Made by a program: the position numbers and the translations under genes. A stretch of DNA of 64,000 nucleotides from Promethearchaeota archaeon (GTDB lineage Archaea > Asgardarchaeota > Lokiarchaeia > Sigyniarchaeales > SOKP01): NCBI GenBank assembly GCA_019058445.1, contig JAHPZA010000006.1:384001-448000 (forward strand), given 5' to 3'. Shown here piece by piece: positions 57,544 to 58,215 of the stretch. Position 1 is the stretch's first letter; each line of letters opens with the position of its first letter. The notes below the pieces were generated by a model. The model worked only from the letters and a program-made list of their open reading frames with translations, was not told the DNA's origin and did no database searches.

Positions 57544-57621
57544 ATAATGGAAGTTACCGCAAAAAATCAATGTGAAATAATCTATACTCTGCCATCTTTC
57601 TTTAAACAACTTAATTTATAA
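57544..57621 (+). pseudogene. Orphan diverged copy of the last 25 codons of the PIN-TPR gene (55812-55889)
   Basis: Encodes IMEVTAKNQCEIIYTLPSFFKQLNL* versus VIEITAINQCEIIYTLPSFFKQLNL*. Confidence 0.8.
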
Positions 57622-57734
57622 GAATTCAGTTAATTTCAGATAAAATTAGATTTAACATTAGGGGTATTCTATCTTAAAACCTTGAGTTAAAAAGGAATAA
57701 AAGTTAAAAATTAATATTTTTTTATAAATTGTAC

Positions 57735-58036
57735 TCACTCTTTTCGCAAGTTTTTATCTCGTTGACTAACTTGATGACTATGAACTGCGCAGCTTATGCA
57801 ATAATACTTTTTATTCTGTCCGCTCATGATAATCGTCCCAGCTTTTTTAAGTTCCCCATACATTCTTCCATCAACGAGCGATGTTCGACGAGTAACTGCT
57901 TTAGCTTTGCTTTTTACAGTGAATACGAAATGTTAAACACTCTTGCAACAAATCTTCCACACTTACTACACTGAACTTTGCCATAATTTCCCTTGCTGCT
58001 GCCAGTTTTACCACCAGATTTTCTTTTCTTAGGCAT
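57735..58036 (-). CDS. rps26e: Ribosomal protein S26e, spliced: exon 1 58036-57942, exon 2 57912-57735, 90 aa; absent from the ORF track
   Basis: SD AGGAGG at 58050-58045. Spliced product MPKKRKSGGKTGSSKGNYGKVQCSKCGRFVARSKAKAVTRRTSLVDGRMYGELKKAGTIIMSGQNKKYYCISCAVHSHQVSQRDKNLRKE has the eS26 motifs MPKKR, CxxCGR and YCISCAVH. Confidence 0.9.
57913..57941 (-). other. Putative BHB intron in rps26e mRNA, 29 nt
   Basis: UUUGU-UGCA-AG^A-GUG-(16 nt)-CAC-UGUA-AA^A-AGCAAA: 4-bp central helix, two 3-nt bulges, 3-bp intron stem, imperfect exon stem; canonical cuts restore the frame. Confidence 0.8.
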
Positions 58037-58215
58037 AGCTCCAACCTCCTTTTCTGTAATTCTCATCTATTCTTCTAAACTCTAAGAATTTGAATTCTAC
58101 AAACCTTAAATAATTTGTTCTTATAGATTAAGTCTTTTCACAAAAATTACATGAAGTAAAAAATTCTTTAATCATAAAGAGAATTACATAATTAATGAAA
58201 TTCTGAGGATTAAAA

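What the first reader, a model, noticed from the sequence alone, without database searches (positions are those of the whole stretch)
57735..58036. Hidden ribosomal protein S26e gene split by a second BHB intron (29 nt)
Seen: a gene absent from the ORF track, with a strong SD, starts MPKKRKSGG...CSKCGRFVAR, hits TAA inside a 29-nt insert, and continues in a shifted frame with SKAKAVTRR...YYCISCAVH. The insert folds as UGCA/UGUA central helix, bulges AGA and AAA, intron stem GUG/CAC, and an outer stem UUUGU/A(G)CAAA with one bulged G. Canonical cuts (AG^A, AA^A) give GCA AGA AGC AAA = A-R-S-K, matching the length of the eS26 consensus (VP(R/K)DKA). Both halves are otherwise intact, including all four Zn-binding cysteines, which argues against decay. 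Inference: S26e production depends on splicing. The BHB is more relaxed than the one in cooS.
Basis: partly seen in the sequence, partly recalled or inferred. Interest (0 to 1): 0.92.

Follow-up and report, generated by a model that had tools for sequence, protein, structure and literature searches.

The report
tRNA-type mini-intron in Asgard rps26e
The only gene for ribosomal protein eS26 in this Asgard archaeon is broken by a 29-base insert shaped like a tRNA intron, and environmental RNA from very close relatives carries the gene with exactly those 29 bases removed, so the message is very probably spliced by the tRNA-splicing enzymes.

Summary
rps26e lies on the minus strand: exon 1 58036-57942, a 29-nt insert 57941-57913 containing a TAA, and exon 2 57912-57735 in another frame. 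It is the only S26e copy in a 92.6%-complete genome. Removing the 29 nt gives a 90-aa protein whose junction (FVAR|SKAKAVTRR) is identical to uninterrupted genes of four congeners.

The insert and its exon flanks can be drawn as a canonical hBHBh' motif, and the predicted cuts fall exactly on the boundaries set by the orthologs (chance about 2e-4).

The same 29-nt insert sits at the same site in seven other distinct DNA sequences. These show three compensatory pair changes. The codons that form the motif do not vary, and both exons have dN/dS of 0.03-0.11.

Three metatranscriptome contigs from three studies lack exactly 57913-57941. Their exons are 92-96% identical to intron-bearing DNAs and at most 81% identical to any intronless one.

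An EndA catalytic subunit and RtcB are present in the genome.

Caveats: the RNA comes from close relatives, not this strain. Folding energy does not favour the BHB. Cleavage by EndA is inferred.

It is a new member of a known kind (crenarchaeal cbf5). This scan has already noted similar introns on other Asgard DNA and elsewhere in this genome.

The parts
58104..58110 (-). TATA-like box (TTTAAGG), inferred promoter element of rps26e
   Evidence: The sequence ATTTAAG(G/T)TTTGT is conserved upstream of the gene in G007 and G008. RNA contig X18 reaches 58072. Its function is inferred only.
58044..58049 (-). Shine-Dalgarno-like GGAGGT, 7 nt before the start codon
   Evidence: Read directly. It is conserved in G007, G008, L041, L050 and L053.
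57942..58036 (-). rps26e exon 1 (95 nt: Met1 to the second base of the Arg32 codon AG|A)
   Evidence: It matches Pfam PF01283 positions 1-30. It aligns to residues 1-32 of intact orthologs. It is covered by RNA contigs X17, X18 and X19.
57913..57941 (-). 29-nt BHB intron (AGUGUUUAACAUUUCGUAUUCACUGUAAA), with an in-frame TAA at 57916-57914
   Evidence: It is absent from intact congeners. It is left out of three metatranscriptome contigs (table 4: 29 letters left out at 57912). It is present at the same site in seven other DNA sequences.
57735..57912 (-). rps26e exon 2 (178 nt: third base of the Arg32 codon to the TGA stop)
   Evidence: It matches Pfam PF01283 positions 43-93. It aligns to residues 32-90 of orthologs. 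The pooled pN/pS ratio is 0.09.
57906..57952 (-). Whole hBHBh' element. Outer helix 57952-57948 with 57911-57906 (G 57910 bulged). Central helix 57947-57944 with 57918-57915. Bulge 1 at 57943-57941, cut between 57942 and 57941. Bulge 2 at 57914-57912, cut between 57913 and 57912. Inner hairpin 57940-57919.
   Evidence: 93.4% of cells are paired across 8 sequences, against 35-52% when the partner is slid. Three pairs show compensatory changes. The motif-forming codons GCA and AGA are invariant in 8 of 8 intron-bearing sequences but vary in the 12 that lack the site-1 insert.

Best explanation
rps26e is transcribed as a pre-mRNA carrying a 29-nt bulge-helix-bulge intron.

The exon flanks pair with each other to form the outer helix. 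The last four paired exon-1 bases, UGCA, pair with UGUA near the 3' end of the intron to form the central helix. The intron forms its own hairpin. This places the two splice sites in 3-nt bulges on opposite strands, 4 bp apart.

The archaeal splicing endonuclease cuts after the second base of each bulge (AG|A and AA|A). RtcB then joins the exons to give GCA AGA AGC AAA, which restores the frame and the conserved FVARSKAKAVTRR segment. Only the spliced message encodes full-length eS26. Unspliced message would give a 40-residue peptide ending at the TAA.

Shown here:
- the insert, its exact boundaries and the fact that the gene is single-copy
- retention of the insert under selection in eight DNA sequences
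- the joined form in environmental RNA of very close relatives
- presence of the EndA and RtcB genes

Inferred: that EndA and RtcB are the enzymes acting at this site, and that this particular strain splices. The intron looks like a lineage-specific gain within one genus.
For: 1. Single copy. Only one S26e locus exists in a 92.6%-complete, 10-contig genome, and it is split into matches to profile positions 1-37 and 21-96.

2. Exact junction. Removing the 29 nt gives CGRFVARSKAKAVTRR, identical to the uninterrupted genes of congeners G001, G005, G006 and G009.

3. Geometry. The BHB cut sites coincide with the ortholog-defined boundaries. The per-site rate of an equally good motif is 8.4e-5.

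4. Conservation as an RNA structure.
- The same 29-nt insert sits at the same site in G007, G008, L041, L043, L045, L050 and L051.
- 93.4% of cells are paired, against 35-52% in slid controls.
- Three pairs carry compensatory changes, including an exon-exon G-C to A-U change in L051; 11 of 500 shuffles reach this.
- Codons Ala31 GCA and Arg32 AGA are invariant in 8 of 8 intron-bearing sequences, while neighbouring synonymous sites vary. The same codons vary freely in the 12 sequences that lack the site-1 insert.

5. Not decaying. dN/dS is 0.03-0.11 in pairwise comparisons. The pooled pN/pS ratio is 0.09 in each exon, with dS up to saturation.

6. RNA.
- Contigs from three metatranscriptome runs of three studies lie on the gene with exactly 29 letters left out at 57912.
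- No intron-retaining contig was laid.
- Their exons are 92-96% identical to intron-bearing DNAs (G000, G007, L045, L050) and at most 81% identical to any of the 12 sequences that lack the site-1 insert.
- X19 groups with G007 and L045 at 99/90 support. A single clade of intron-bearing plus RNA rows is not rejected (p-AU 0.54).

7. Machinery. A tRNA_int_endo catalytic domain is present (68 bits, 202-aa ORF), and so is RtcB (574 bits). Asgard archaea are reported to have the (alpha-beta)2 EndA with the L1 loop, which is linked to broad substrate range (PMC5829648).
Against: - The RNA contigs come from unsampled relatives (8-18 differences from this window). An intron-free DNA copy in those very strains cannot be excluded, and RNA libraries can contain DNA.
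- Contigs cannot show unspliced precursors, levels or ends.
- Nearest-neighbour folding does not favour the BHB. The 71-nt MFE is a different fold with z = -0.03. The canonical BHB evaluates at -1.6 to +4 kcal/mol, against -5 to -10 for an alternative that shares the outer and inner helices.
- The central 4-bp helix never varies, so it has no covariation support of its own.
- Only one EndA-domain gene was detected, and no beta subunit was identified here.
- Strict BHB motifs are not enriched genome-wide.
Confidence: 0.87

Rival explanations
1. The insert is removed from the RNA, but by a route other than EndA plus RtcB. Candidates are another endonuclease acting on the alternative internal-loop fold, or an unknown ligation pathway.
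For: The thermodynamically preferred fold is not the BHB. No enzymatic test was possible. Only one EndA-domain gene was found.
Against: The joined form removes exactly the bases between the two canonical bulge positions. At 29 nt the insert is far too small for a group I or group II ribozyme, from general knowledge. EndA and RtcB are both encoded. The bases of the central helix and bulges are frozen at synonymous sites, and the alternative fold does not explain this.
Confidence: 0.05
2. Translational recoding: ribosomes get past the insert by frameshifting or by hopping over 29 nt (T4 gene 60 style), and the mRNA is not spliced.
For: The two frames are open on either side of the insert. The cbf5 cases were at first confused with frameshifting (PMC2738675).
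Against: RNA contigs lack the 29 nt. A frameshift would add about 9 residues that orthologs do not have. The insert evolves like a hairpin, not like codons. The take-off codon AGA and the triplet 29 nt downstream, AAA, do not match (read).
Confidence: 0.03
3. The locus is a disrupted, non-functional gene. The joined RNA contigs come from intron-free relatives, and eS26 is either dispensable or encoded in the missing ~7% of the genome.
For: The genome is 92.6% complete. The RNA contigs are not identical to this window.
Against: dN/dS is 0.03-0.11 in both exons across lineages whose synonymous sites are saturated. The insert length is fixed at 29 nt in 8 sequences and carries compensatory changes. 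Every DNA sequence within 88-96% identity carries the insert, whereas the RNA contigs at the same distance lack it.
Confidence: 0.03
4. The insert is an assembly or sequencing artefact.
For: None found.
Against: The insert is present in independent assemblies from several projects: two GTDB genomes and five further metagenome contigs. Four DNA runs hold 61-100% of the sampled words of this stretch.
Confidence: 0.01

Closest known systems
BHB intron in the cbf5 (pseudouridine synthase) pre-mRNA of Crenarchaeota (Aeropyrum, Sulfolobales, Desulfurococcales; Watanabe 2002; Yokobori 2009, PMC2738675)
   Same: It is a short intron inside a protein-coding sequence, flanked by a bulge-helix-bulge. It is removed by the tRNA-splicing route and distributed lineage-specifically with gains and losses. 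It also causes gene-prediction errors.
   Different: The gene here is a ribosomal protein of the small subunit, and the lineage is Asgard. The intron is very small (29 nt) and restricted to part of one genus. A second intron position exists in the same gene in relatives. Splicing of cbf5 was shown experimentally in cultured strains. Here the evidence is metatranscriptome contigs from close relatives.
Archaeal tRNA (and rRNA) BHB introns, including the many non-canonical-position introns of Asgard tRNA genes (PMC11291895; bioRxiv 10.64898/2026.10.13.758758)
   Same: The motif geometry and the cut after the second bulge base are the same. The intron size range matches. The organism encodes the EndA and RtcB enzymes.
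   Different: The host RNA is an mRNA, so removal has to precede or compete with translation. The exon arms of the motif are constrained by coding, which shows up as frozen synonymous sites.
Similar mini-introns noted earlier by this scan in other Asgard genes (rpl44e, eS30, uS3, mre11) and elsewhere in this genome. These are unpublished AI notes.
   Same: They are 29-33-nt inserts with BHB geometry in single-copy genes.
   Different: Several of the follow-up notes I read report that no RNA data could be obtained. Here a joined RNA form was found. I did not test those notes.

Membership tests
Archaeal splicing-endonuclease (BHB) intron | Two 3-nt bulges on opposite strands separated by a 4-bp helix and flanked by outer helices (hBHBh') | tested here: met
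   The motif is: outer UUUGU/A(G)CAAA, central UGCA/UGUA, bulges AGA and AAA, and an inner hairpin. The pattern holds in 8 sequences with 93.4% of cells paired. Caveat: the energy model prefers another fold.
Archaeal splicing-endonuclease (BHB) intron | Cuts after the second base of each bulge yield the functional joined RNA | tested here: met
   The predicted junction GCA AG|A AGC restores the frame and is identical to that of intronless congeners.
Archaeal splicing-endonuclease (BHB) intron | The intron is absent from the mature RNA | tested here: met
   Three metatranscriptome contigs lack exactly 57913-57941. They belong to close relatives that are 92-96% identical to intron-bearing DNAs, not to this strain itself.
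Archaeal splicing-endonuclease (BHB) intron | The organism encodes the splicing endonuclease and an RtcB-type ligase | tested here: met
   PF01974 scores 68 bits at G000:C9:770595-770843, and PF01139 scores 574 bits at C1:114713-116020. A beta subunit was not looked for further.
Archaeal splicing-endonuclease (BHB) intron | Cleavage by EndA leaving 2',3'-cyclic phosphate and 5'-OH ends, and release of a circular intron | not testable with these tools
   This needs enzyme assays or circRNA sequencing.
Ribosomal protein eS26 (Pfam PF01283) | Match to the family profile over its full length, with the four zinc-binding cysteines | tested here: met
   The halves match profile positions 1-30 (22.2 bits) and 43-93 (26.2 bits), each just under the 27-bit cut-off on its own. 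The six-frame match scores 27.2 bits. The spliced product is 82-85% identical to three intact congeners (74% to G006), all four of which score 52-57 bits. Both cysteine pairs, CSKC and CISC, are present.

The most novel reading that the evidence does not exclude
Mini BHB introns of 29-30 nt may be an actively spreading intron class in the protein-coding genes of this Asgard group. rps26e alone has acquired them at two independent positions, and one contig carries both. If so, EndA/RtcB splicing would be a routine step of mRNA maturation. It would have to be kinetically separated from translation in a close prokaryotic relative of eukaryotes, and it could couple ribosomal-protein output to tRNA-splicing capacity.
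Probability: 0.4. Interest if true: 0.88.

Novelty: new member of a known kind. Interest (0 to 1): 0.72.

Why it matters
In the papers I could search, pre-mRNA splicing by the tRNA-splicing enzymes is confirmed in Archaea only for cbf5 of Crenarchaeota (PMC2738675). My literature searches found no report of it for Asgard mRNAs or for any ribosomal protein gene.

Here an essential, single-copy ribosomal protein gene of an Asgard archaeon cannot be translated without removal of a 29-nt intron, and environmental RNA shows the joined form.

- **For annotation:** public gene calls at such loci are wrong. They include 50-aa and 76-aa chimeric ORFs such as P0093-P0096, P0100 and P0102, so marker-gene sets miss eS26.
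- **For biology:** the case raises the question of how a prokaryote with coupled transcription and translation keeps ribosomes off an unspliced message. That question bears on ideas about why eukaryotes separated the two processes.

Tried and rejected
- **RNA holders for the 601-nt stretch:** none was listed. A second query with the gene alone listed four RNA runs with small shares. X20 gave no laid contig.
- **MFE folding of the 71-nt region:** this gives a different fold, no better than shuffles. Evaluated energies do not favour the canonical BHB.
- **Genome-wide counts of strict BHB motifs:** counts by intron length showed no clear excess over a Markov shuffle or a mirror-geometry control. 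The motif alone cannot be used as a detector in this AT-rich genome.
- **DNA search in G002, G003, G004, G015 and G011:** nothing rang, even in genomes known to hold the gene, so the result is uninformative.
- **Rfam on 57600-58200 and ARAGORN on the window:** no matches.
- **Bacterial-type promoter and terminator scan:** nothing useful.
- **Short database proteins of 62 and 70 aa:** I suspected further intron sites. The one 62-aa case I fetched (L052) is an intact gene with an ATT start where the caller picked an internal Met. The 70-aa proteins were not fetched and probably have the same cause.
- **P0097/L056:** a 0.76x-coverage contig that diverges after ELKK. It was not interpretable.
- **Translational hop:** rejected because the take-off and landing triplets differ (AGA and AAA).
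- **Deep branches of the 264-column tree:** these are unresolved, so I rely on pairwise identities and the one well-supported X19 grouping.

Full report
**1. What is in the sequence**

On the minus strand a GGAGGT (58049-58044) precedes an ATG at 58036. The frame reads MPKKRKSGGKTGSSKGNYGKVQCSKCGRFVAR. It then continues as VFNISYSL and stops at TAA (57916-57914). From 57912 a different frame reads SKAKAVTRRTSLVDGRMYGELKKAGTIIMSGQNKKYYCISCAVHSHQVSQRDKNLRKE and stops at TGA (57737-57735).

Deleting 57941-57913 (29 nt; the boundary can slide by one A without changing the product) gives a 273-nt ORF of 90 codons. The two halves match Pfam Ribosomal_S26e positions 1-30 and 43-93. A six-frame search of the whole genome (4.61 Mb, 10 contigs, 92.6% complete) finds no other S26e locus.

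**2. The boundaries are fixed independently of any RNA motif**

Among 40 relatives, nearly all carry an uninterrupted rps26e. The spliced product of this window is 82-85% identical to congeners G001, G005 and G009, and 74% identical to G006. Across the junction it reads CGRFVARSKAKAVTRR, exactly as all four do. So an insert of exactly 29 nt, in one of two equivalent registers, is what separates this gene from an ordinary one.

**3. The BHB**

Written 5' to 3', the element is:
- UUUGU (outer helix)
- UGCA (central helix)
- AG|A (bulge 1)
- GUG... hairpin ...CAC (inner helix)
- UGUA (central helix)
- AA|A (bulge 2)
- A(G)CAAA (outer helix)

This puts two 3-nt bulges on opposite strands, 4 bp apart, with each bulge 3' of its central-helix strand. 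From my own knowledge of archaeal and eukaryotic pre-tRNA structure, that is the geometry of pre-tRNA introns at position 37/38 (anticodon stem, anticodon-intron helix, bulges).

Cutting after the second bulge base gives exactly the ortholog-defined boundaries. In this genome a motif at least as good (4 central pairs, at least 3 inner pairs, 5 outer pairs with at most one 1-nt bulge) occurs at 8.4e-5 of sites for a 29-nt spacing. The coincidence therefore has a chance of about 2e-4.

The motif alone is weak evidence. Strict 12-pair versions occur about 150 times per intron length in this genome, which is 69% A+T. That is no more than in a Markov shuffle or in a mirror-geometry control.

**4. 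Comparative evidence**

*Other intron-bearing sequences.* The same 29-nt insert sits at the same site in two other species of the genus, G007 and G008. One of these carries the record title Candidatus Hermodarchaeota archaeon. It is also present in five further distinct metagenome sequences: L041, L043, L045/L047, L050 and L051.

*Distribution.* In a sweep of 135 genomes of the family, 121 have the gene. Only G000, G007 and G008 show the split, and all three are in genus g1. Congeners G001, G005, G006 and G009 are intact. This points to a lineage-specific gain within the genus.

*Structure conservation.* On the 8-sequence alignment, 93.4% of cells form pairs, against 35-52% when the partners are slid. 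Three pairs carry changes on both sides:
- inner G-C to A-U
- inner A-U to U-A
- the exon-exon pair G-C to A-U in L051, produced by GTT to ATT together with AGC to AGT

Only 11 of 500 shuffles reach this. The central helix is invariant, so it gets no covariation support.

*Frozen codons.* The codons that build the central helix and bulge 1 (Ala31 GCA, Arg32 AGA) are identical in 8 of 8 intron-bearing sequences, while flanking synonymous sites vary. In the 12 sequences that lack the site-1 insert, the same codons vary: GCT, GCC, GCG, GCA or CCG for the first, and AGA, CGA, CGT, CGC or AGG for the second. These lineages are related, so the counts are not independent.

*Selection on the exons.* Both exons are under strong purifying selection. 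Pairwise dN/dS is 0.03-0.11, and the pooled pN/pS ratio is 0.09 for each exon. Synonymous divergence reaches saturation between some intron-bearing pairs. The gene has therefore been maintained with its intron for a long time.

**5. RNA evidence**

No RNA run holds the stretch at high share. I laid four metatranscriptome runs with small shares. Three of them, from three studies, each gave one contig covering both exons with '29 letters left out' at 57912. This is the predicted joined form. No contig retaining the insert was laid.

The contigs differ from the window at 8, 20 and 18 positions, so they come from relatives. I rebuilt their sequences from the difference table and compared them with all DNA copies in hand.
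- Against intron-bearing DNAs (G000, G007, L045, L050) they are 92-96% identical.
- Against every sequence that lacks the site-1 insert they are 66-81% identical. This set includes the nearest ones by protein similarity, which I fetched for this purpose (L057, L058, L059, L053, L054).

The reconstructed X17 sequence translates, by my reading, to a protein identical to this window's spliced product over the part it covers. X19 groups with G007 and L045 at 99/90 support. A tree holding all intron-bearing and RNA rows together is not rejected (p-AU 0.54).

The simplest reading is that these are spliced mRNAs of intron-bearing strains. The remaining loophole is an unsampled intron-free strain inside that clade.

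**6. Machinery**

The genome encodes a tRNA_int_endo catalytic domain (68 bits, 202-aa ORF) and RtcB (574 bits). Published work assigns Asgard archaea the (alpha-beta)2 endonuclease with the L1 loop that accompanies broad substrate range (PMC5829648).

**7. Weak points**

- Nearest-neighbour folding prefers an alternative that keeps the outer and inner helices but replaces the bulges and central helix with an internal loop. That fold scores -5 to -10 kcal/mol, against -1.6 to +4 kcal/mol for the BHB.
- Enzyme action at this site is inferred.
- The RNA evidence consists of contigs, from relatives.

**8. Rivals**

- *Recoding by frameshift or hop:* contradicted by the RNA contigs, by the extra residues it would add, by the hairpin-like evolution of the insert, and by non-matching take-off and landing triplets.
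- *Pseudogene:* contradicted by the single-copy status and by dN/dS.
- *Artefact:* contradicted by independent assemblies and by DNA runs that hold the stretch.
- *A non-EndA removal route:* cannot be excluded without an assay.

**9. Comparison with the known**

The closest published case is the cbf5 pre-mRNA intron of Crenarchaeota. Its authors state that splicing had not been confirmed for any other archaeal protein gene (PMC2738675).

My searches of the held library found papers on abundant tRNA introns in Asgard archaea (PMC11291895; bioRxiv 10.64898/2026.10.13.758758). They found none on Asgard mRNA BHB introns or on any ribosomal protein gene.

Earlier notes of this scan describe similar mini-introns in other Asgard genomes (rpl44e, eS30, uS3, mre11) and many candidates in this same genome. 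I did not test those. They show that the scan has found this kind of feature before on other DNA. Several of the follow-up notes I read report that no RNA data could be obtained, so the joined RNA form is what this case adds.

**10. Verdict**

This is a real feature: a BHB intron in the only rps26e gene. It is a new member of a known kind, at about 0.87 confidence for the full EndA/RtcB mechanism.

Noticed in passing
L041:1541-1569; L053:715-744; L054:715-743: There is a second BHB-type insert position in rps26e of relatives. It lies inside the Ser70 codon (A|GC), just before CAVHS. The inserts are 29 nt (L041, L054, and by the shared truncated protein P0063 probably L055) or 30 nt (L053, in frame, with a TAG). 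In L054 the motif is canonical: central GCAU/AUGC, bulges AAA and AGG, and a 7-bp inner stem. L053 has a different inner stem (CUUACGCA/UGCGCAAG). L041 carries both the site-1 and the site-2 intron. Gene callers truncate these genes to 73-83 aa (P0063, P0066, P0067, P0069, P0083).
   Followed up: partly
L033 (G007), L034 (G008), L052:~540-560; many orthologs: rps26e in many relatives appears to start with ATT, not ATG (IPKKRK...), behind a normal GGAGG. In G008 an in-frame TAA lies six codons upstream, and in L052 a TGA lies three codons upstream. That leaves only ATT or neighbouring non-standard codons as possible starts. The one such locus I fetched (L052) had been called from an internal Met (62-aa product); the 70-aa products in public databases probably have the same cause. 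This window itself has ATG.
   Followed up: partly
GCT GCT CCA GAA TAT is followed by about 32 nt and then ATG GAG CAG. Complementary exon arms (GCUGCUCC/GGAGCAGC) and an internal hairpin (UUGCUAAU/AUUAGCGA) are visible. I read it only and did not test it against orthologs.
   Followed up: partly
P0093, P0094, P0096, P0100 (76 aa) and P0102 (50 aa): Public protein sets contain chimeric ORFs from intron-bearing rps26e loci. One type runs from an out-of-frame ATG through the intron into exon 2. The other is exon 1 read into the intron. eS26 is therefore mis-annotated or missing in these genomes.
   Followed up: yes
G141:C61:20698-20925; G070:C85:3580-3804; G129:C246:4507-4701: In the family sweep these genomes give truncated or stop-ridden S26e matches (profile positions 1-80; 5-76 with three stops; 30-98). 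They may be further interrupted copies or start-codon effects.
   Followed up: no
window 58066-58037 (minus strand): An upstream in-frame ATG (MRITEKEVGA-MPKK) extends the ORF by 10 codons here and in G007. In G008 it is closed by a stop, and it overlaps the Shine-Dalgarno sequence, so it is probably not the start.
   Followed up: partly
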